Origin: Naegleria gruberi | Lineage: Eukaryota | Reading direction: 5' to 3' (one strand) | DNA: 64,000 bases | NCBI GenBank assembly: GCA_000004985.1 | Contig: GG738846.1 | In this document: positions 9,328 to 59,184 of the stretch, piece by piece | Position numbering within the stretch: the stretch's first letter is position 1 | Layout of the letters: every line of letters begins with the position of its first letter | Notes under the pieces: model-generated | Told to the model about the DNA's origin: nothing | Databases searched by the model: none | Seen by the model: only the letters and a program-made list of their open reading frames with translations | Translations under genes and position numbers: made by a program

Positions 9328-11939
9328 TTAGTGTTCGGTTGTAATATTAATAATACTGGAGAGTCTTTCAAAAGAAGTCTTGACAAGTAAAAGTTGTGAA
9401 TGACATTGTTGAAGGCTGGTCAATTGTTGTTTATCCTCATCTGAAATATAGTCGTGTGTTGGATCTTCATCGTCATCCATAAAGTTTTCAACCCTACTCA
9501 AAAGATTACTTGCTATAGAGCATAAAATATCTTGTAAACCAATAAACTTGTTCATGATAATGAGCATTTGTTCAACTTGGAGTCGTGTATTGACTTGAGT
9601 CTTTGCAAGGAAGGCCTTTTCAGCAATGCCAGTAAGGAAAGCGTAATGGGCAGCATTTAATTGATCCAAGTCCCCATCATTATCTCTCAAGTATTTGACA
9701 TCATGAATGAATTTATCCCAAGCACACTCCATTACTTCAAACATTAAATAGAATTGTAAACTCTTCAAAAATCTACTCATATCATGTCTCAATAGAATTG
9801 AAAAGTTCAAGGCATTTGATAATTGAGAAAGAACAGTAGTCTTCTTTCTGGGAATGGAACGAATGAGTTGGACAACCTTTTTCCAATTTTCATTGAGTGA
9901 TAGTTCTACTCGCTTAATATTCCACAAGAATTTAAATATCTTGTGGTAAACCTTCATAATAGGCTTTGCTAGTATTGTATCCAATGGAACTGTAATCTTA
10001 TAATCCAGATAGAAAACATCCCATCCATTTACATCGCTAGAATTTGTATTAGAATTTGATTTACCTTCAACCTTTAGTGCAACATCCAATCTATTTAGAA
10101 CATCTTGCTCATCGAATTGGGCATTTGAACCTCTGATTGCACTCTCTAGCAGACCAAGAAGGTCATGTTTGAAAATTGCATTGGAAGGCTTTTTCAAATC
10201 ATTGCTGTTATCAGTAATGTAAGATACATTATTCGTGAAAAACTTACTTTAGCAATTCAATTAAATGTTGAATAAAATCACCCTGGCCAAGTAAAAGATA
10301 TTGTTTGATGGCATGACAATGAAGTAAAAACTTGAATTGATCAAGCATTAAGTCGATTACTCTCTTGTTGGCAACTTTTGCTACACAATCAACAACATTT
10401 TCCAACTTGGAAATATTGTGGAATCCCAGTCCATCTGTAGATGACTTGGTTGATGAATCCATTGCCCATTCAGCATCTTTACAACATTGTCTGATAAAGT
10501 TAATGGTTTTACCAGTTCTCAAAATTTTTTCTGCCAATTGCTTGTCAATATAGAGAGGGACCATATCAACATCTATACTATATTTCAGTGCCCACAGTTT
10601 ATCAATGCCAATATTCGGGTTTGACTTGATAAAGAACTCTGCGTAAGGATCTTCTAATTCTCCATCAATAACCCAAGATTTTAACATTCTAAATATTGGA
10701 GAAGAGGTATGATCTAGAATTCTAACAAATAATTGTTGAACTAGTGGATCTCCATGTTTAAGGAAAGTGAAAATAGTGGAGATCAATATGCCCCCCTTTT
10801 TAAATTTACAAGAATCTGCCAATACAGCCAAATTTTTCATAATCTCTGTTGGTTCAATAGCCCATACAGCCAATCTTCTGAAAGTCACGGGTGTATTGGT
10901 ATTCTCTTGACTTTCAATATGTGTTTCGAGTGTAGATATTGTTTTGTAATAATCCACAAGTTCCTTGTCGATGGCTGCACATAAACTCTGCACAATCAAT
11001 CCATTTGAGGTGATATTCAATGTTCCAGAATCCACAAAACTTTTTACCTTTTTGTAGAGCCAACCTAATTCTGACAACTTGCTCATTAGTAGTCGAGTAG
11101 ATTTTGGTATTCCAATTTTTGTATCTACAATATATCGTTCGCTTCCAATATCAAATTTAATGTACTTTCCATCAATTCCTTGAAAGGTGTAAATGATGTC
11201 TCTTACCAGTACAGATTCGGCAATTTCAAATTTTGTATTTTCTTGCTCACTGTACGATTGTCTGTATTGTTCAAATGTTGATGATTTAGGCCTAATTTCC
11301 TGTGATTGAAGCATTCTTGGATTTTCTTGCCTTTGTGGTGTGGTAGAGTTGAGTTTGAATAAATTGTCTTGGAATGTCATATTTAAGGATGACACAGAAT
11401 TATCTTGTTGTAAATTGAAAATTCCTAGAGAATTGAGTAAATATACTAGATTGAATTTGTTTTGAATTACAGTTTTTGAATTGAGTTTGTGATATAATTG
11501 TGAGAATTGAAAAATTGTATCCGATTTGTTTTCTCTTGCAACTATCAAAATAAAAGATAAATATTGGGATTATTCAATGTAGCTACATACGTCTCTTCTT
11601 GATAGTTTCTGTGAGCAAAATTTGATCTTGTGTTTGAACAAGGGTCGGAGAAATCCTACTTGAAAGTAATGATGATAAAAATCTCAATTGCTTATTTACA
11701 TATTGTTCATACTCTTCATCGGTTTGCATTTTACTTTTGGGAATATTAATCTTGACCAGTTTTTTCAATAAACCAATCACTTGCTGAGATGAAAGTGAAG
11801 AAGAAAGAGAAGAGTGGTTCGATCCCATCATTGTATTATATTCTGATGATCCGGAAAGTTGTTGTTGTTGTATGATTGTATTATTGCTGCTAAAATTATT
11901 CGAGTTGTTGATTGTGGGCACATTTTGTCTTGGCATCAT
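9328..11939 (-). CDS. Gamma-tubulin complex component (GCP2/GCP3, Spc97/Spc98 family). 3 exons: 11583-11939, about 10242-11533, 9328-10202.
   Basis: GRIP-like regions (LVYLLNSLGIFNLQ...; C-terminal FLTGIAEKAFLAKTQVNTRLQVEQMLIIMNKF). Introns gtatgtagc...tttgatag (~49 nt) and gtaagtttttc...aacag both keep frame. Total ~830 aa, a size compatible with a GCP3/Spc98-type protein. Confidence 0.65.
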
Positions 11940-12126: not shown

Positions 12127-12820
12127 ATGGCTAAACACTTTCCTACTCAGTTTGGATCCACTTCTTCACGAGACGATTTTACTAACGATCTACACTTTGT
12201 AAAAGCATTCAAGAGGGAAGAAAAAAAAACACCATTATTCTGTGCGAATGATTTTCTCACATTACGAAATGGTGACGTTATTAAAATTAAAATTATTAAA
12301 GTATGTTGATGGATGAATTAATAATTCTAAACTAGAGTCGTACAGGGTGAGGAACTTGTAGTTTGTGATATAAATGGAAAGGCTGGTAAGTTTGGAATTT
12401 ATTGGTGTCAGTGTGTTTATCTTTTTGAAATTAATTTATGCAAATGGAATTACTTTGTTAGATCCATGGTAAGTTTGTAATTCATTGGTTAATGTTTATT
12501 TGGAATGAATTTGGAAAAGGTGTCAGATATATGTCAAGGGATTTAATGAAACACCCTCTACAAGTGTTGTTAAAAAGACTTTGAATCCTGTTTGGGATGA
12601 AAGTTTTTCATTTATAGTGACTGATAGTGAGCTTCTTTCTGTGGATATTGTATTTAGAGTGATGGATAGAGATATGTTTTCCGATGATTTTATGGGTCAA
12701 TCGGTTGTATATTTAACTAGGAAAGATTTTTCTCTGAATTGTTTCAAGAATTTCACTTTACCGTTGGTGGGTGTTGATCATGGATTGTTACACGTGTCAA
12801 TAGGTGTTTTTAGAGATTAA
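12127..12820 (+). CDS. Small C2-domain protein. About 4 exons: 12127-12300, about 12342-12381, a possible 7-nt micro-exon near 12458-12464, and 12516-12820.
   Basis: C-terminal exon encodes a C2-like fold (VVKKTLNPVWDESFSFIVTD...VMDRDMFSDDFMGQSVVYL). Donors gtatgt and gtaagt. AAAAATG start. Confidence 0.55.
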
Positions 12821-13399
12821 CAGATTATAGTTTTAGAAAATCATCCTTAATGTTAACTAATTTTACAAATACAACAATCTAACAATTTTAAGCAATATTT
12901 TATTAATACATTGGATGTAGATCAATTTGGCCTTCATCTGCAGAATCTGCCAAATTAAAGTATTTGGAAGCTGTATTAGGAGTACTCTTCATCATGGTCG
13001 TTCTCCTATTTTCACCAGCACTTGCTATGGAACTACTTGGGCTTGAACCTAGTTCTTCTTCGACAATGGTTTGGAAATCTTTTTGGTCAACCTGTATTCT
13101 TAATTGCTTCTTTTTAGGTATATCTTTTTTGTTAGGGATAACCTTATTCTTAGGTGTATTTTTTACAGAGGATTGATTTTGCCTAGTTGGTGGAGCAGAT
13201 GATGGCCTAGTACCTCTTTTCTCATTCTTTGGAAGAACGCTCTTATAGTAACCAACAACTCCAGCTGCCTTTTTCTTATTGAAATTATCTATTGGATGAG
13301 GATAAGAGTAGCCTTTTCCTTCCTTATTTACAACCATTGAATTTCTCTTTGTTTCCTCAGCAAATTCATCCAGCTCCTTATCAGGTAGAAACTCGTACT
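12591..13399. repeat. Copy 1 of a ~808-bp near-identical (~99%) segmental duplication (copy 2 at 14182-14989)
   Basis: Direct comparison shows only a few substitutions (e.g. gtattagg vs gtaccagg; gccttttcc vs gccctttcc). Covers the 3' end of the C2 gene and the 3' end of a convergent minus-strand gene. Confidence 0.85.
12903..13397 (-). pseudogene. Truncated paralog (the C-terminal 144 codons) of the 14494-15576 gene; upstream sequence diverges at 13399
   Basis: The 144-aa ORF is identical except for one residue to the C-terminus of the 360-aa protein at 14494-15576. It lacks that gene's N-terminal 216 codons. The upstream ORF (13328-13540) is in a different frame. Confidence 0.45.
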
Positions 13400-13656
13400 A
13401 TTTGAATAATCAAAATCAATAACTTCATCTTGTTGTTCCATCTTTCTTCGTTGTTGATCCTCTCCCATTCTATTTAAACTCGATAGAACAGAAACCAAAG
13501 GTTTGGTTTTCATAACTGGTTCAACAAGACTGTTAGTCATTTATAAGAATACTATCAAAAACCCTTACTACTTACATTTCATCATCTTCTTCCACCAACA
13601 GTGGTTGCCAATTTTGCACTGCAGGGGCAACATATTCACTAGCTGGAGAAAACATT
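13328..13656 (-). CDS. Hypothetical small chimeric ORF. Exon 1 is about 13572-13656 (MFSPASEYVAPAVQNWQPLLVEEDDEM). After a gtaagtagtaagg intron, an exon reads into the duplicated segment out of frame with the paralog ORF.
   Basis: ATG plus a GTAAGT donor on the minus strand. The ORF ends at 13328. May be a young chimeric gene or non-functional. Confidence 0.25.
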
Positions 13657-13693
13657 TTTTTTAAATTTAAAAATGTAGATTTGAGGCGGGAAA

Positions 13694-13707
13694 TTTTGGG
13701 CGCCAAA
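13694..13707. promoter_or_regulatory. E2F-like site TTTTGGGCGCCAAA in the divergent promoter between the 13656(-) and 13873(+) genes
   Basis: GCGCCAAA is a perfect half-site; the other half has one extra G. Confidence 0.35.
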
Positions 13708-13872
13708 CATTAATTGGTATATAAATAAAAAAAATGGTCAACAATCTGGTGCTTGTATCATAACAAAGTTGTTCTTCATTGGTTGATATTTCCTAATCCC
13801 AAAAGATAGCATTCATAACAATTGGTGGTATACCAGGGCGGAGTTTGTTTCAGGAATTATTAATCAAAAAAA

Positions 13873-14131
13873 ATGAAAGCCCCTGTCCTTGCTGTTTTCG
13901 TTCTGTTTTTGATGATGGTAATAGTTTCTGCTCGGAGCGCAGAAGGAAGAAGTAACAAACTATCATCTTCTCTTCTTCGTGATCGTAATATTGGTTACAA
14001 GAGAGATTTGGAAAAATTTCAAAGGAGAATTGACAGACTCAAAGAACAACTCGAGTTCTTTGCTGAAAGTGACAGTGAAGGTCTATCCGAAAGAGATTTC
14101 TTACGTAAATTTTACTTGTCAACTGGAGGTC
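13873..14131 (+). CDS. Secreted or coiled-coil protein, N-terminal part (signal peptide MKAPVLAVFVLFLMMVIVSARSAEG); the ORF runs into an assembly gap
   Basis: AAAAATG start. Hydrophobic signal-peptide-like N-terminus. Truncated by the N-run at 14132. Confidence 0.4.
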
Positions 14132-14181
14132 NNNNNNNNNNNNNNNNNNNNNNNNNNNNNNNNNNNNNNNNNNNNNNNNNN
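14132..14181. other. Assembly gap (50 N)
   Basis: Run of n. Confidence 1.
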
Positions 14182-14411
14182 TTTGGGATGAAAGTTTTTC
14201 ATTTATAGTGACTGATAGTGAGCTTCTTTCTGTGGATATTGTATTTAGAGTGATGGATAGAGATATGTTNTCAGATGATTTTATGGGTCAATCGGTTGTA
14301 TATTTAACTAGGAAAGATTTTTCTCTGAATTGTTTCAAGAATTTCACTTTACCGTTGGTGGGTGTTGATCATGGATTGTTACACGTGTCAATAGGTGTTT
14401 TTAGAGATTAA
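14182..14411 (+). CDS. 3' fragment of a C2-domain coding exon (duplicate of 12591-12820), preceded by the gap
   Basis: Identical protein tail ...VGVDHGLLHVSIGVFRD. Contains one n at 14270. Confidence 0.45.
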
Positions 14412-14989
14412 CAGATTATAGTTTTAGAAAATCATCCTTAATGTTAACTAATTTTACAAATACAACAATCTAACAATTTTAAGCAATATTTTATTAATAC
14501 ATTGGATGTAGATCAATTTGGCCTTCATCTGCAGAATCTGCCAAATTAAAGTATTTGGAAGCTGTACCAGGAGTACTCTTCATCATGGTCGTTCTCCTAT
14601 TTTCACCAGCACTTGCTATGGAACTACTTGGGCTTGAACCTAGTTCTTCTTCGACAATGGTTTGGAAATCTTTTTGGTCAACCTGTATTCTTAATTGCTT
14701 CTTTTTAGGTATATCTTTTTTGTTAGGGATAACCTTATTCTTAGGTGTATTTTTTACAGAGGATTGATTTTGCCTAGTTGGTGGAGCAGATGATGGCCTA
14801 GTACCTCTTTTCTCATTCTTTGGAAGAACGCTCTTATAGTAACCAACAACTCCAGCTGCCTTTTTCTTATTGAAATTATCTATTGGATGAGGATAAGAGT
14901 AGCCCTTTCCTTCCTTATTTACAACCATTGAATTTCTCTTTGTTTCCTCAGCAAATTCATCCAGCTCCTTATCAGGTAGAAACTCGTAC
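14182..14989. repeat. Copy 2 of the ~808-bp segmental duplication
   Basis: Near-identical to 12591-13399. Begins exactly at the gap edge. Confidence 0.85.
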
Positions 14990-15576
14990 ATATAATCAGG
15001 TATTCTTTCACTTGCAATTTTATAGTACTCTCTTGTCTTGGCTGTCAAATCTTTGATGGATTCTAGTTGATCCGCGAGAAGGGTAAACGTTGTTCTCTTA
15101 TCTCTTACAACTTGGTCATCATCAGGTATTTGAGAAAGTTGGGTGTGAATTTTGGAATAGGATAATTCAGCCATCTTTAACAATGAGTCGAGTTCTCCTG
15201 GTGTTGAAAGGGCAGCTACTTCATGTGGTTGTACATCTACTAGGGCTAGTTTTTTCTCTATTGGCAGAGGCTTTACTCTGAAGTAATTGAAATCTTGCAG
15301 AATTTCATTAAGGTAGTGATATGTCTTCGGTTTTAGAGGGGAGGACACTGATTTTCTCAGCTTGACTGATGCAGTCACCGTAGACTTTTGTCGTTTCTTC
15401 TCCTTCTTTCTTATGAGACGTTTCATTTTCATTTCAATTGCAAAGGCATCCTTCTTTTTGGCAAAAATTTCCTCAATATTATTCTTTAGATCCTTCTTTT
15501 TAAATTCCTCCTCTGCTATGGTTTTTTTCACTTCTATTGAAGGTATTTTCCTTCCCCTTTGTTTACTAGCGTCCAT
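14494..15576 (-). CDS. Hypothetical 360-aa basic K/E-rich protein, single exon
   Basis: ATG verified at 15574-15576 (MDASKQRGRK). Charged N-terminal region then a P/S/K-rich tail. Its last 144 aa are duplicated at 12903-13337. Confidence 0.55.
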   Translation of the reverse strand: MDASKQRGRKIPSIEVKKTIAEEEFKKKDLKNNIEEIFAKKKDAFAIEMKMKRLIRKKEKKRQKSTVTASVKLRKSVSSPLKPKTYHYLNEILQDFNYFRVKPLPIEKKLALVDVQPHEVAALSTPGELDSLLKMAELSYSKIHTQLSQIPDDDQVVRDKRTTFTLLADQLESIKDLTAKTREYYKIASERIPDYMYEFLPDKELDEFAEETKRNSMVVNKEGKGYSYPHPIDNFNKKKAAGVVGYYKSVLPKNEKRGTRPSSAPPTRQNQSSVKNTPKNKVIPNKKDIPKKKQLRIQVDQKDFQTIVEEELGSSPSSSIASAGENRRTTMMKSTPGTASKYFNLADSADEGQIDLHPMY

Positions 15577-15623
15577 GGCCAGATCTGCGAGTATACTCTG
15601 ACTACCAATGGAAGTAGCAACTT

Positions 15624-15673
15624 NNNNNNNNNNNNNNNNNNNNNNNNNNNNNNNNNNNNNNNNNNNNNNNNNN
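15624..15673. other. Assembly gap (50 N)
   Basis: Run of n. Confidence 1.
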
Positions 15674-15674
15674 A

Positions 15675-15935
15675 ACTGGAATTGCTGATTCTTTACAAAG
15701 TGTCATGATTATTAATTTGGCATTCAATGCAATTGGAGGTCAAATTCCAAAAGAGTATGGTGAAATACCCTCACTAACTGGAATCCATTTAGGAAGCAAT
15801 CATTTCGAAGGATTATTGCCTTCAGGTCTCTGCCGTGTATTGTCCTGTGACTGTTACAATAATCCAAAACTATTGTGCCCAGCCGATAATTGTAATAATA
15901 ACCATTGTAACATTACCTTTTTTCAAAATTTGTAA
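15675..15935 (+). CDS. C-terminal fragment of an extracellular-type LRR protein (plant-like LRR consensus ..NAIGGQIPKEYGEIPSLTGIHLGSNHFEGLLPSGL then a Cys-rich tail); 5' part lost in the gap
   Basis: The frame is open from the gap edge (TGIADSLQSVMIINLAFNAIGGQIP...). LxxLxLxxNxFxGxLP pattern. Cys-rich cap CDCYNNPKLLCPADNCNNNHC. Confidence 0.4.
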   Translation, partial: TGIADSLQSVMIINLAFNAIGGQIPKEYGEIPSLTGIHLGSNHFEGLLPSGLCRVLSCDCYNNPKLLCPADNCNNNHCNITFFQNL

Positions 15936-16133
15936 ATAATGGTGGTCAACTTGAGTATTTCATTTTCAGTAAATGGGATTGTCACAAAGTTTGCAATTTA
16001 CCAGAATTTTTTTTAAAAATGATAACAATTTTATCCTCAAAAAAGGACGTTAAGTGCCAACCTTAATACCTCAAGTTACTATTAAACAACACAGCTGTTA
16101 AAAAATGAACGATATAGAATTGAGATGAAAAGT

Positions 16134-18976
16134 TTAATTGTTATTCAACCCTCTTTGTGAAAAGTAGTGATGTTTTAAAATAGAGCCAGCATCTGGTCGT
16201 CTTTCTGGATCCTTCTCCAACATGCTAAACACCAACTCCACCAACTCTAATGAATAGATCTGTAAACTAATCTTCTCCTTTAATATTTGTTTGACAGTTT
16301 CAGAATCCTTTAACATGTACATTTGATTGATGGAAGTTGTTGTATCATGAGATAGAATCTGGTATAGAGTAACTCCCAAACTGAATATATCAGTTTTATG
16401 ATCACATGAAATTCCACACAACAATTCTGGTGAAATATACAATGGAGTTCCAGCTAATGAAAAACTGGTTGATTGTTTTGAGTTTTTTGCCAAACCAAAA
16501 TCAGCAATGATAATGTCAATGGCTGAATCATTCATTTTCTGAATGAAAATATTGGAAGGTTTAATATCTCTGTGAATAACTCTGATTTAGTGTTAAATCC
16601 ACATATTTTAATATGTTTCTAAACTTACCCAAAGTTGATGAAAATATAATCCAAGGCACTACATGATTGAAATAATATTTGAGCAATTAAAAGTTCTGAA
16701 CAAAATTTGGATCCAGTAATGAGTCTATTCAAATCACCCATCTCATAATAAGTCATATCAATACATAGAATTTGACCATTTCCAATAAAGAAATCATTCA
16801 CTTTGAGAACATTTGGGTGATTCATCTTTAAAAGTTGAATTCCTTCTCTCATAGCCACGTTCAAATCTTCATGGTTATCAAATCTAACCACTTTGATTGC
16901 TTTGACTTCATTATTACATTTAGTGTCATTCACTTTAAACACACTTCCACCTTGTCCAATCTTTACCAAATTTGTATATCTATCCATTGGATCATTTTGA
17001 GATTCTTTTGAAGATGAAGTATATTGAGAAGGGAAATCAGAAATCATTGTTGATTGTGTGAATGATTTTAATTCTTCTTCCGAAGGATTCACCGTATCAA
17101 TGTTCAAAGTTGCTTCCTTTGCTCTATTTCTATTAATTAACACAATAATGATAATTACAAAAATTACAATGATTAAAATTACAATAAATAGGGTTGGAAC
17201 AAGTACTGCAACTAGTATAGTTGTTTGATCAGATTGAGCACTAAGATTTGTTCCATTATTTTGCTTATTAATTGCTGAGCAATCCTTATTATAAGTTGTT
17301 ACATCTGATGTTGGACATGTACAAGTGTCAGGAGCTGTACATTCACCAATACTTGAACAAACCAGTCTACTACTAGAAGAAACTCCAAAACAATTAAATG
17401 TTTCACAATCAGCTCCACTATAACCTGTCTGACATGAACAATTGTTTGGTGCAATGCAATTTCCTTTTGAGGAACATACGTTTACATCTGTTTTGAGTAT
17501 ATTATTACATTTAAACATGCTACATGTGGAATTTAGATATCCACTATTACAAGTACATTCATCTTTGGCAGTACATTTACCAAAACCTGAACAAACATTT
17601 GGTTGACTATTTGATATTCCAAAACATGAATATTCCTGACAATACGACCCATTATAATGATCTTGACATGAACAAGCATTATATGCATAACAAAATCCAT
17701 GTGAAGAACAAACACCTGAACTGTCATATCTTACTCCATTGCAATTAAATAAATTACAACTAGTTCCATATCCAAAATATCCTTCAAAACAATTACAATC
17801 ACTTCCTGATTGAGTAGAATTTAAAGGACATGGTACAATTTTTCTAATATAATTATAATTAGTGTCTGCAATAAATATTTCACCCAATTGATTGATTGAA
17901 ACTCCATGAGGTGATAAATTTGTAGAATTTCCCAATAAACCATCCCCATTGAAAAGTTGATTTCCTGTTCCAGCAAATGTTGAAATAATTCCACTTGTTG
18001 AAATCTTTCTAACTCTGAAATTGACTGAATCTGCAAAAAATACTTCACCCAATTGATTTACTGTAATTCCTCTAGGTGAAAATATCTTTGCCATTGTTCC
18101 TAATATTCCATCTCCATTGTAACCATTTGAACCTATTCCAGCAATTGTGGTAATCGTACCATTTGTCAATATTTTACGAATTCTAGAATGAGAGAGAACT
18201 GAAATGTATACTTGACCTATTTGGTCAACTGCAACACCTGTAGGAGAACAAATATTTGCATTAGTTGCTAAAATACCATCTCCATTAAAATCACATGATC
18301 CTGTTCCAGCAATTGTTGTAATGGTACCATTTGTCAAAATTTTACGAATTCTATTATTTCCAGTATCTTTCCAAATTTAACAGTTAAAAGTTCAACAATA
18401 ATACCTACCTGCAATTATAACTTCTCCCAATTGACTAATAGCAACTGCATTTGGATTTTTAACATTGGCACTTGTTGACGGAATAAAATCACCATTATAG
18501 GCTCCATCTCCAACACTAGTCCCAGCAATTGTTGTTATGGTACCATTTGTCAATATTTTACGAATCCTATTTCCAAATTCAGCAATAATAATTTCACTCA
18601 GTTGACTAACAGCAATATCATAGGGATAGTAAAGTTGGGCATTGGTAGCTAGTATGTTATCACCATTATATCCAGCAGTACCAGTTCCAGCAATTGTTGT
18701 TATTGTGCCATTAGTTAAAATCTTTCGAATACGATGATTGCTCGTATCTGATATCAGAATCTCCCCAGTTGATTCGAGAAAGGCAACAGATGAAGGTGAA
18801 TTTAGAGTTGCAGATGATGCCAACATGTAATCTCCATTGTAAACACTTGAACCCGTTCCAGCAATTACTTTCAAATAGTTTCCAACTCCAAAAGTTGTTT
18901 GTTGTGCTGTGCTTGTTTCAACAACCAACCATGCAGAAAGTAGAAGCAAGCACATGTAAATGATTTGTCGAAACAT
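16134..18976 (-). CDS. Receptor-like Ser/Thr protein kinase: signal peptide, NHL repeats, EGF-like Cys-rich repeats, TM, then kinase domain. 3 exons: about 18410-18976, 16629-18362, 16134-16584.
   Basis: N-terminal MFRQIIYMCLLLLSAWLVVETSTAQ. Repeated ..GTGxxGYNGDG.LAT.A.L..P.GVAV..LGEV.IAD..N.RIRKI (NHL-like) 6-7 times. Cys-rich CxxxxxCxCxxGYxGxxC units. TM LVAVLVPTLFIVILIIVIFVIIIIVLI. Kinase motifs GQGGSVFKV, KAIK, HRDIKPSNIF, DFGLAK, GTPLYISPE. Introns gtaggt...ggaaag and gtaagttt...aatcag keep frame. Confidence 0.7.
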
Positions 18977-28153: not shown

Positions 28154-28226
28154 GGGGATGTAGCTCACATGGTAGAGCGCTTCTTTAGCATGGAAGAGGT
28201 ACGGGGATCGATACCCCGCATCTCCA
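28154..28226 (+). tRNA. tRNA-Ala (anticodon AGC)
   Basis: GGGGATGTAGCTCA...; G3:U70 Ala identity pair. Anticodon stem CTTCT/GGAAG, loop TTAGCAT (U33-AGC-A37). T-arm GGGGATCGATACCCC. 73 nt. Confidence 0.85.
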
Positions 28227-28328
28227 CACATTTTGCCTTTTGCTAGTTTTCTTATTAAGGCTAATAGAATATTATGACATGGATTAAAAGAAAGATGAAT
28301 AAACCTTCATTCTCTACTTGTTATTCAT

Positions 28329-58928: not shown

Positions 58929-59111
58929 TTTTTTAAATTTATTAATTATTAATAAAAAAAATTGCCAATGACAATTATTGCATTGTGATATGAAATTCTT
59001 CATAATAAAATGTGTGGAGATGCGGGGGTAAAAGGGGGAATGAAGAAGGAATATAAGAATAGGGTGCTATTAAAACTGAAGCAAAGAAGACTTGCAAAGT
59101 AAAAAACTTAG

Positions 59112-59184
59112 TGGAGATGCGGGGTATCGATCCCCGTACCTCTTCCATGCTAAAGAAGCGCTCTACCATGTGAGCTACATCCCC
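59112..59184 (-). tRNA. tRNA-Ala (AGC), identical to the copy at 28154-28226, opposite strand
   Basis: Reverse complement is a 73/73 match to the plus-strand tRNA-Ala. Confidence 0.85.

What the first reader, a model, noticed from the sequence alone, without database searches (positions are those of the whole stretch)
12591..15673. ~99% identical 808-bp segmental duplication at gap edges creating a truncated out-of-frame paralog; possible recent duplication or assembly artefact
Seen in sequence: 12591-13399 and 14182-14989 differ by only a few substitutions. The unit spans the convergent 3' ends of the C2-domain gene and of the 360-aa minus-strand gene. Copy 2 starts exactly at a 50-N gap, and a second gap follows at 15624. 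In copy 1 the paralog retains only the last 144 codons, and its upstream ORF (exon MFSPASEYVAPAVQNW.. plus intron) reads into it in a different frame. Inference: either a very young tandem duplication generating a chimeric or pseudogenised locus, or a scaffolding error duplicating one locus across gaps.
Basis: seen in the sequence. Interest (0 to 1): 0.5.

Follow-up and report, generated by a model that had tools for sequence, protein, structure and literature searches.

The report
One locus assembled twice, not duplicated
The near-identical 808-bp "duplication" in this Naegleria gruberi scaffold is most likely one locus written down twice: a 1.4-kb leftover contig carrying an intact version of a gene was wedged into a small gap next to a version of the same gene that has an internal deletion, so it is an ordinary assembly artefact and not new biology.

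Summary
The repeat is real in the sequence. Window 12591-13398 and 14182-14989 match without gaps over 808 bp, with 4 substitutions and 1 N. Copy 2 lies on a 1,442-bp mini-contig (14182-15623) bounded by the only two 50-N gaps in the window.

The window is Naegleria gruberi. Three results argue against a genomic tandem duplication:
- **The mini-contig interrupts a gene.** A near-identical N. gruberi LRR protein on a separate 8,656-bp scaffold (NAEGRDRAFT_76635) reads straight through, leaving only 148 nt for the hole that holds the mini-contig.
- **The "paralog" and its "upstream ORF" are one gene.** They are the 3' and 5' ends of the orthologue of N. fowleri FDP41_000666 (814/859 aa). That gene is single-copy and convergent with a single C2 gene in N. 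fowleri. The main contig lacks about 1.9 kb of its middle, and the mini-contig supplies 634 nt of that.
- **The overlap looks allelic.** It is about one Sanger read long and about 0.5% divergent.

Most likely the mini-contig is the other haplotype, intact, and the main contig carries a heterozygous frameshifting deletion. A cloning or assembly deletion, or a true duplication collapsed into the gaps, cannot be excluded without reads. Interest is low.

The parts
12127..12820 (+). C2-domain gene (several exons). Its last 230 nt (12591-12820) lie inside the repeated unit.
   Evidence: Pfam C2 E=3.4e-08 for the last exon. Exons at 12232-12814 match the single N. fowleri C2 gene, L001 12807-13708.
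12591..13398 (.). Copy 1 of the 808-bp unit, inside the long contig A (which ends at 14131).
   Evidence: Ungapped match to 14182-14989 with 4 substitutions and 1 N.
12903..13398 (-). 3' end of the FDP41_000666 orthologue in contig A: 164 codons plus stop. It is annotated as the 144-aa NAEGRDRAFT_61946, starting from an internal ATG.
   Evidence: It aligns with the C-terminus of N. fowleri P0084.
13398..13399 (.). Breakpoint where contig A and mini-contig B diverge. On the minus strand, A reads ...TTCAAATA|GTACGAGTTTC and B reads ...GATTATAT|GTACGAGTTTC. In A the reading frame shifts here.
   Evidence: Conservation with the N. fowleri exon 2 stops exactly here.
13399..13529 (-). Exon 2 of the same gene (131 nt up to the breakpoint), encoding ...LVEPVMKTKPLVSVLSSLNRMGEDQQRRKMEQQDEVIDFDYSN.
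   Evidence: 56% identity over 55 aa to residues 12-64 of the 859-aa N. fowleri model, E=8e-17. DNA alignment, coordinates.
13530..13575 (-). Intron 1 (46 nt, GTAAGT...ACAG). It joins exon 1 and exon 2 in frame.
   Evidence: The donor sits at the same position and phase as in N. fowleri.
13576..13655 (-). Exon 1 of the same gene (ATG at 13655), encoding MFSPASEYVAPAVQNWQPLLVEEDDE.
13873..14131 (+). 5' part of a secreted LRR-protein gene (signal peptide through ...FLRKFYLSTGG), cut off by gap 1.
   Evidence: 84/86 identical to residues 1-86 of NAEGRDRAFT_76635.
14132..14181 (.). Gap 1 (50 N).
14182..15623 (.). Mini-contig B (1,442 bp). The first 808 bp are copy 2, and the remaining 634 bp carry more of the gene's large exon. 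There is one N at 14270.
14494..15623 (-). 3' 375 codons of the FDP41_000666 orthologue in its undeleted form. It is annotated as the 360-aa NAEGRDRAFT_61947, but the frame stays open up to the contig end (VATSIGSQSILADLA-MDASK...), so the model is N-terminally truncated.
   Evidence: phmmer hit to the N. fowleri 814-aa protein, E=6.9e-45. The alignment covers P0084 residues 432-814, C-terminus to C-terminus.
15624..15673 (.). Gap 2 (50 N).
15675..15935 (+). 3' part of the same LRR gene (TGIADSLQSV...NNNHCN). It ends early compared with NAEGRDRAFT_76635 because of an 89-nt length difference near 15912-15915.
   Evidence: 79/79 identical to residues 137-215 of P0082. The 31-aa Cys-rich tail of P0082 is absent, and PFFKICK* is found in another frame at 15916-15936.

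Best explanation
There is one locus here, not two. The scaffold is Naegleria gruberi. The true arrangement is a C2-domain gene on the plus strand, convergent with a single gene of roughly 800 codons on the minus strand (the orthologue of N. fowleri FDP41_000666). The 5' end of that gene sits back to back with a secreted LRR-protein gene.

Two versions of this locus were sequenced:
- **Contig A (up to 14131)** carries a version in which about 1.9 kb of the gene's middle is missing. Exon 2 is fused out of frame to the last 164 codons, giving a predicted 93-aa product.
- **Mini-contig B (14182-15623)** comes from the undeleted version.

Reads from the undeleted version that crossed the breakpoint could not be merged into contig A. 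They formed a small separate contig that overlaps A by about one Sanger read length (808 bp). The scaffolder, guided by mate pairs, then dropped it in the right orientation into the nearest hole, a 148-nt gap inside the LRR gene. That created an apparent tandem duplication and two spurious 'paralogous' gene models, NAEGRDRAFT_61946 and NAEGRDRAFT_61947.

I think the two versions are most likely the two haplotypes of a heterozygous diploid, so the deletion would be a real heterozygous loss-of-function allele.

Shown: the repeat, the gaps, the identity of both gene ends, the single-copy synteny in N. fowleri, and the continuity of the LRR gene in a sister scaffold. Inferred: that B is allelic, how the scaffolder behaved, and that the deletion is real.

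I put the probability that no genomic duplication exists at about 0.8. The confidence of 0.55 given for this explanation is for the specific 'heterozygous deletion allele' version.
For: 1. **Organism.** The GCP3 ORF at 10244-11548 is 100% identical to a Naegleria gruberi protein on a 1,001,995-bp scaffold.
2. **Copy 2 has no sequenced flanks.** It sits on a 1,442-bp contig between the only two gaps in 64 kb. It begins at the gap edge, in the middle of the last exon of the C2 gene, and it contains an N.
3. **B splits a gene.** Window 13873-14130 matches residues 1-86 of NAEGRDRAFT_76635 and window 15675-15911 matches residues 137-215. That is a 253-aa N. gruberi protein on a separate 8,656-bp scaffold. 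Only 50 codons (148 nt) are missing, yet the scaffold holds 1,542 nt there.
4. **The 360-aa ORF is the C-terminal half of a longer gene.** It hits N. fowleri FDP41_000666 (814 aa) at E=6.9e-45, aligning to residues 432-814, and its frame is open to the end of contig B.
5. **The exons upstream of copy 1 are that gene's own 5' end.** They show 56% identity to residues 12-64 of the 859-aa N. fowleri model, E=8e-17. The intron-1 donor position is conserved, and conservation stops exactly at 13399.
6. **N. fowleri has one copy.** In two N. fowleri assemblies the locus carries a single copy of this gene, and in the reference assembly a single C2 gene is called convergent with it.
7. **The divergence fits alleles.** There are 4 substitutions in 807 compared bases (0.5%), two of them synonymous changes in two different genes. 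Naegleria is described as a heterozygous diploid (PMC9928731).
8. **This is a documented artefact class.** Small contigs highly similar to nearby sequence are a known product of haplotype mis-assembly in Sanger WGS assemblies. One published example is a 1,537-bp contig at 98.9% identity (Kelley & Salzberg 2010, PMC2864568).
9. **The placement is explained.** Overlaid on contig A, B would span 12591 to about 14032, ending 100 nt short of gap 1. That makes gap 1 the nearest available hole.
Against: - No reads, mate pairs or depth were available, so the allelic status of B is inferred.
- The 8,656-bp scaffold could not be fetched. It could be a paralogue and not the allele, and it differs from the window by an 89-nt indel and 2 of 86 residues.
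- The 50-N gaps may be placeholders of unknown true size, so more sequence could be hidden in them.
- B is only about 1.4 kb long. The remaining roughly 1.2 kb of the undeleted gene is nowhere in the window, which is somewhat odd if a full haplotype was sequenced at normal depth.
- The alignment does not meet the formal 'contained' or 'overlapping' contig criteria of Kelley & Salzberg, because of the structural difference.
Confidence: 0.55

Rival explanations
1. There is one locus and one intact sequence. The deletion junction at 13398/13399 in contig A is itself an artefact, from a chimeric or internally deleted plasmid clone or from an assembler misjoin. Mini-contig B shows the only true sequence. 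No duplication and no deletion allele exist in the organism.
For: The evidence against a duplication is the same as for the best explanation. In addition, the junction breaks the gene out of frame within a block conserved with N. fowleri, which is what an artefact would do. The sequence just after the junction, GTACGAGTTTC, resembles the start of N. fowleri intron 2, GTACGTGTTTT. That leaves room for slippage between short direct repeats, which can also happen during cloning in E. coli.
Against: The assembler chose the deleted path for the main 1-Mb scaffold and left the intact path as a 1.4-kb orphan. That suggests the junction had more than single-read support. A and B also differ by substitutions away from the contig end (12976-7, 13314), so they appear to come from different DNA molecules or haplotypes. 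A nearby second lesion on the same contig path, the 89-nt indel in the LRR gene, suggests a genuinely divergent haplotype.
Confidence: 0.2
2. This is a genuine recent segmental duplication, tandem or dispersed. The genome holds two copies of the C2 / FDP41_000666-like unit. Copy 1 has been pseudogenised by an internal deletion. The near-identical remainder of copy 2 was collapsed by the assembler and is hidden in the two gaps or on another scaffold.
For: The two copies are in direct orientation 1.6 kb apart and are 99.5% identical. The gap sizes may be placeholders, so kilobases could be hidden. In a collapsed tandem duplication, the end of contig A and the start of contig C would also fall close together in LRR coordinates. 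A third near-identical LRR gene copy exists on a separate scaffold, so this region is present more than once in the assembly.
Against: - No duplication junction is sequenced. Both ends of copy 2 are contig ends.
- As placed, B lies inside an LRR gene that is continuous in NAEGRDRAFT_76635, leaving a hole of only 148 nt.
- The left 'boundary' at 12591 lies mid-exon and coincides with a contig end. The overlap length is about one Sanger read, as expected for leftover reads.
- N. fowleri has a single copy of the unit.
- This reading needs more ad hoc assumptions than the haplotype reading.
Confidence: 0.15

Closest known systems
False segmental duplications caused by haplotype mis-assembly in Sanger whole-genome shotgun assemblies (Kelley & Salzberg 2010, Genome Biol 11:R28, PMC2864568). 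Later work on false gene gains from duplication errors is PMC9516828.
   Same: A small contig (1.4 kb) highly similar (99.5%) to sequence 1.6 kb away in the same scaffold. It is bounded by gaps, in the same orientation, in a heterozygous diploid genome, and it creates a spurious extra gene model. The paper's own example is a 1,537-bp contig at 98.9% identity.
   Different: Only 56% of the mini-contig aligns, because the two versions differ by a roughly 1.9-kb indel. It therefore meets neither their 'contained' criterion (>93% of the contig) nor their 'overlapping ends' criterion. The mate-pair test that defines the class could not be run here.
Heterozygous structural variants (indel alleles) that break contigs in assemblies of heterozygous diploids
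   Same: The two versions are co-linear on one side of a sharp breakpoint and diverge on the other. Substitution divergence of about 0.5% is typical of alleles. The variant disrupts a gene in one version only.
   Different: The right-hand junction of the undeleted allele is not in the window, so the indel is seen from one side only. Its size (about 1.9 kb) is estimated from the N. fowleri orthologue.
N. fowleri FDP41_000666 / CAG4716434.1 (uncharacterised protein of 814/859 aa), the orthologue of the gene involved
   Same: - The C-terminal 375 codons align to residues 432-814 (E=6.9e-45).
- The first two exons align to residues 12-64 of the 859-aa model (E=8e-17).
- The intron-1 position is the same.
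- The gene has the same convergent C2-domain neighbour.

   Different: There is no Pfam domain and no homologue outside Naegleria among 1.84 billion representatives. About 400 central codons of the N. gruberi gene are not present in the window.

Membership tests
False duplication from haplotype mis-assembly (Kelley & Salzberg 2010) | A placed contig aligns at >95% identity to nearby sequence in the same scaffold | tested here: met
   808 bp, 99.5% identical, 1,591 bp away, same orientation.
False duplication from haplotype mis-assembly (Kelley & Salzberg 2010) | [quoted passage not shown] | tested here: not met
   The alignment covers 808 of 1,442 bp (56%) of the mini-contig. It reaches B's left end (0 bp) but lies 733 bp inside contig A's right end. 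The shortfall is explained by a structural difference between the two versions.
False duplication from haplotype mis-assembly (Kelley & Salzberg 2010) | [quoted passage not shown] | not testable with these tools
   No reads or mate-pair data were available.
False duplication from haplotype mis-assembly (Kelley & Salzberg 2010) | The sequenced organism is a heterozygous diploid | not tested
   From the literature only. Naegleria is described as mainly a heterozygous diploid, citing the N. gruberi genome paper (PMC9928731). The 0.5% divergence seen here is compatible with that.
Genuine tandem segmental duplication | Both copies are embedded in sequenced flanks, with a sequenced duplication junction | tested here: not met
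   Copy 2 begins at a gap edge, and its contig ends in a second gap. No junction sequence exists in the window.
Genuine tandem segmental duplication | The placement of the second copy is compatible with the surrounding genes | tested here: not met
   The mini-contig splits an LRR gene whose two halves are only 148 nt apart in the near-identical NAEGRDRAFT_76635.
Genuine tandem segmental duplication | Read depth over the unit is twice that of the unique flanks | not testable with these tools
   No read data.
Orthologue of N. fowleri FDP41_000666 | Significant sequence similarity at both ends of the protein | tested here: met
   C-terminal part E=6.9e-45. N-terminal exons E=8e-17.
Orthologue of N. 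fowleri FDP41_000666 | Conserved gene neighbourhood and intron position | tested here: met
   A convergent C2-domain gene lies next to it in both species. The intron-1 donor is at the same codon and phase.

The most novel reading that the evidence does not exclude
The main haplotype of N. gruberi NEG-M really carries two nearby gene-killing lesions, while the other haplotype keeps both genes intact. The lesions are a roughly 1.9-kb frameshifting deletion in the FDP41_000666 orthologue and an 89-nt frameshifting deletion in the adjacent LRR gene. That would be a local example of allele-specific decay in a mostly clonally propagated diploid amoeba. The deletion may have formed between short direct repeats (GTACG...) at the exon-2 donor and inside the large exon.
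Probability: 0.4. Interest if true: 0.25.

Novelty: not a real feature. Interest (0 to 1): 0.1.

Why it matters
The value is mainly housekeeping. Two annotated N. gruberi proteins, NAEGRDRAFT_61946 (144 aa) and NAEGRDRAFT_61947 (360 aa), look like recent paralogues. They are most likely two partial readings of one gene of roughly 800 codons.

The flanking LRR gene is left unannotated in the main scaffold because a foreign contig sits inside it. Anyone counting recent duplicates, orphan genes or gene-family sizes in the reference Naegleria genome would be misled by loci like this one.

If the deletion is a real allele, it is an ordinary heterozygous loss-of-function variant in a Naegleria-specific gene of unknown function.

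Tried and rejected
- **Looking for the 360-aa protein in the 5.8-billion-protein index.** No hit, not even to itself. The exhaustive HMMER search later found the N. gruberi 144-aa model and the N. fowleri orthologue.
- **Fetching N. gruberi contigs by exact protein.** I tried to get the annotated scaffold, the 8,656-bp sister scaffold or an independent assembly. All seven look-ups failed, so N. gruberi does not seem to be in that contig index.
- **Two metagenome scans** for relatives of the gene or for the junction-adjacent 25-mer. Both were empty.
- **Testing whether contig A right of the junction is a diverged version of B's unique part.** There is no DNA match, and the protein alignment scores no better than shuffled sequences. 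Rejected: it is the gene's 5' end, not a diverged middle.
- **Aligning the exon 1-2 peptide to the 814-aa N. fowleri model.** Not significant (265 of 1000 shuffles scored as high), because that model skips the conserved exon 2. Reading the N. fowleri DNA and using the 859-aa model resolved this.
- **Looking for a splice that would restore the frame across the junction in contig A.** I did this by eye on the sequence and saw no plausible acceptor.
- **Reading the N. gruberi genome paper for heterozygosity figures.** It is not held in the library.
Full report
**Observation**

With an offset of 1,591 bases, window 12591-13398 matches 14182-14989 without gaps over 808 bp. The only differences are 12682 C/A, 12976-12977 TT/CC and 13314 T/C, plus an ambiguous base at 14270. 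A self-comparison of the whole 64-kb window finds no other long near-identical pair.

The window has only two gaps, 14132-14181 and 15624-15673, each exactly 50 N. Together they isolate a 1,442-bp mini-contig, which I call B (14182-15623). Copy 2 starts at B's first base. Copy 1 lies inside the long contig to the left (contig A, ending at 14131). The contig to the right (C) starts at 15674.

**Organism**

A gamma-tubulin-complex ORF at 10244-11548 is 100% identical to a Naegleria gruberi protein on a 1,001,995-bp scaffold. Both copies of the minus-strand ORF are annotated on that scaffold:
- NAEGRDRAFT_61946, 144 aa, copy 1.
- NAEGRDRAFT_61947, 360 aa, copy 2.

The public proteome therefore already contains this pair as apparent paralogues.

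**What the mini-contig interrupts**

Contig A ends inside a plus-strand gene that begins with a signal peptide (13873-14131). Contig C begins, on the same strand, with leucine-rich-repeat sequence and a Cys-rich end (15675-15935; weak Pfam LRR match).

A search with these pieces found a single hit, NAEGRDRAFT_76635. This is a 253-aa N. gruberi LRR protein on a separate 8,656-bp scaffold.
- Its residues 1-86 match the end of contig A (84/86).
- Its residues 137-215 match the start of contig C (79/79).

Only 50 codons lie between. Allowing for the partial codons at the contig ends, that is 148 nt. The scaffold instead has 50 N + 1,442 bp + 50 N at this point. A and C are therefore neighbours within one gene, and B does not fit between them.

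**What the duplicated gene is**

The 360-aa ORF has no Pfam domain. An exhaustive HMMER search of 1.84 billion representatives found only two proteins: the 144-aa copy-1 model and N. fowleri FDP41_000666 (814 aa, E=6.9e-45).

The N. gruberi ORF aligns to residues 432-814 of that protein, C-terminus to C-terminus. Its reading frame stays open up to the right end of contig B. The 360-aa model is therefore a fragment truncated by the gap.

In two N. fowleri assemblies the locus carries one copy of this gene. In the reference assembly a single C2-domain gene is called convergent with it, the same arrangement as in the window.

**What lies to the right of the junction in contig A**

- exon 1, 13655-13576;
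- a 46-nt GT...AG intron, 13575-13530;
- exon 2, 13529-13399, which splices in frame to exon 1.

Reading the N. fowleri DNA showed that the 814-aa model skips a conserved 135-nt exon, L001 10125-10259. The alternative 859-aa model (CAG4716434.1) includes it.

The N. gruberi exon 1-2 peptide aligns to residues 12-64 of the 859-aa protein with 56% identity, E=8e-17. In the DNA alignment the intron-1 donor is at the same position, and conservation ends exactly at window 13399.

So contig A holds the authentic 5' end and the authentic 3' end (164 codons plus stop) of one gene, joined out of frame. The predicted product is 93 aa. Measured on the N. fowleri gene, about 1.87 kb is missing between them (L001 10249 to about 12119). 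Contig B supplies 634 nt of that missing middle, and about 1.2 kb is not in the window.

**Interpretation**

The simplest account is that one locus was sequenced in two versions: one with the internal deletion (contig A) and one without (contig B).

Reads from the undeleted version that cross the breakpoint cannot be merged with A. They can reach at most one read length to the left of it. The 808-bp overlap is about one Sanger read, and its left end is simply a contig end in the middle of a C2 exon. This is an inference from the anatomy.

Overlaid on A, contig B would span 12591 to about 14032. That ends 100 nt short of gap 1, so gap 1 is the nearest hole a scaffolder could use. B's orientation is correct for this.

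The 0.5% substitution divergence includes synonymous changes in both genes. It fits allelic variation in an organism described as a heterozygous diploid (PMC9928731). The same contig path also carries a second lesion relative to NAEGRDRAFT_76635, an 89-nt frameshifting length difference at the 3' end of the LRR gene.

This is the known artefact class of false segmental duplication by haplotype mis-assembly (Kelley & Salzberg 2010, PMC2864568). The formal contained and overlapping criteria of that paper are not met, because the two versions differ structurally, and its mate-pair test cannot be run here.

**Rivals**

*(a) The deletion junction in contig A is itself a cloning or assembly artefact.* This keeps the conclusion "no duplication" but removes the deletion allele. 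Against it:
- the deleted path was chosen for the main scaffold;
- A and B differ by substitutions away from contig ends;
- a second lesion sits nearby on the same path.

For it: the junction cuts a conserved coding block. In addition, the sequence after the junction (GTACGAGTTTC) resembles the start of N. fowleri intron 2 (GTACGTGTTTT). That allows slippage between short repeats either in the amoeba or in E. coli. This resemblance is post hoc and weak.

*(b) A true recent duplication whose near-identical remainder is collapsed into the gaps.* This cannot be excluded, because the 50-N runs may be placeholders. However, no duplication junction is sequenced, B as placed splits a gene that is continuous elsewhere, and N. 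fowleri has a single copy.

My estimates:
- heterozygous deletion plus misplaced haplotig, 0.55;
- artefactual deletion, 0.2;
- true duplication, 0.15;
- something else, the remainder.

**Limits**

No reads, mate pairs or independent N. gruberi assembly could be reached. The metagenome scans were empty. The N. gruberi genome paper is not in the held library. Nanopore reads of strain NEG-M exist (PMC12344493) and would settle the matter.

**Verdict**

The "chimeric paralog" description should be replaced by "one gene with an internal deletion in one version". As a genomic duplication this is most likely not a real feature. The underlying biology, if real, is an ordinary heterozygous indel. Interest is low.

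Noticed in passing
window 15912-15936: The window's LRR gene lacks the 31-aa Cys-rich segment (MAVCNCGG...SNGS) present in NAEGRDRAFT_76635. Four nt stand where 93 nt are expected, an 89-nt frameshifting difference. The shared end PFFKICK* is left in another frame, and the window ORF ends early as ...NNNHCNITFFQNL*.
   Followed up: partly
L001 10125-10259 (N. fowleri VFQX01000002.1): The 814-aa N. fowleri model FDP41_000666 skips a 135-nt exon. That exon is conserved in N. gruberi and is included in the alternative 859-aa model CAG4716434.1, so the 859-aa model is probably the correct one.
   Followed up: yes
window 14494-15623 (-): The annotated 360-aa protein NAEGRDRAFT_61947 starts at an internal ATG. 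The frame is open for 15 more codons up to the gap, and the orthologue has about 430-475 further N-terminal residues. The gene family appears to be restricted to Naegleria, with only two hits among 1.84 billion representatives.
   Followed up: yes
window 28154-28227 (+) and 59111-59184 (-): Two tRNA-Ala(AGC) genes in inverted orientation, 31 kb apart. They account for the 111-bp, 91%-identical inverted repeat seen in the self-comparison.
   Followed up: yes
window 17865-18866: Several internal direct repeats at 65-92% identity lie around the 5' end of the minus-strand NHL/EGF/transmembrane/kinase ORF (16625-18337) and extend upstream of it. They are presumably diverged NHL-type repeat units of a receptor-kinase-like gene.
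   Followed up: no
window 13398-13408 (-) versus L001 10260-10270: The first 11 bases of the shared segment after the junction (GTACGAGTTTC) match the start of N. fowleri intron 2 (GTACGTGTTTT) at 9 of 11 positions. This may hint that the deletion arose between short direct repeats, one of them at the exon-2 donor. It cannot be tested without the undeleted N. gruberi sequence.
   Followed up: partly
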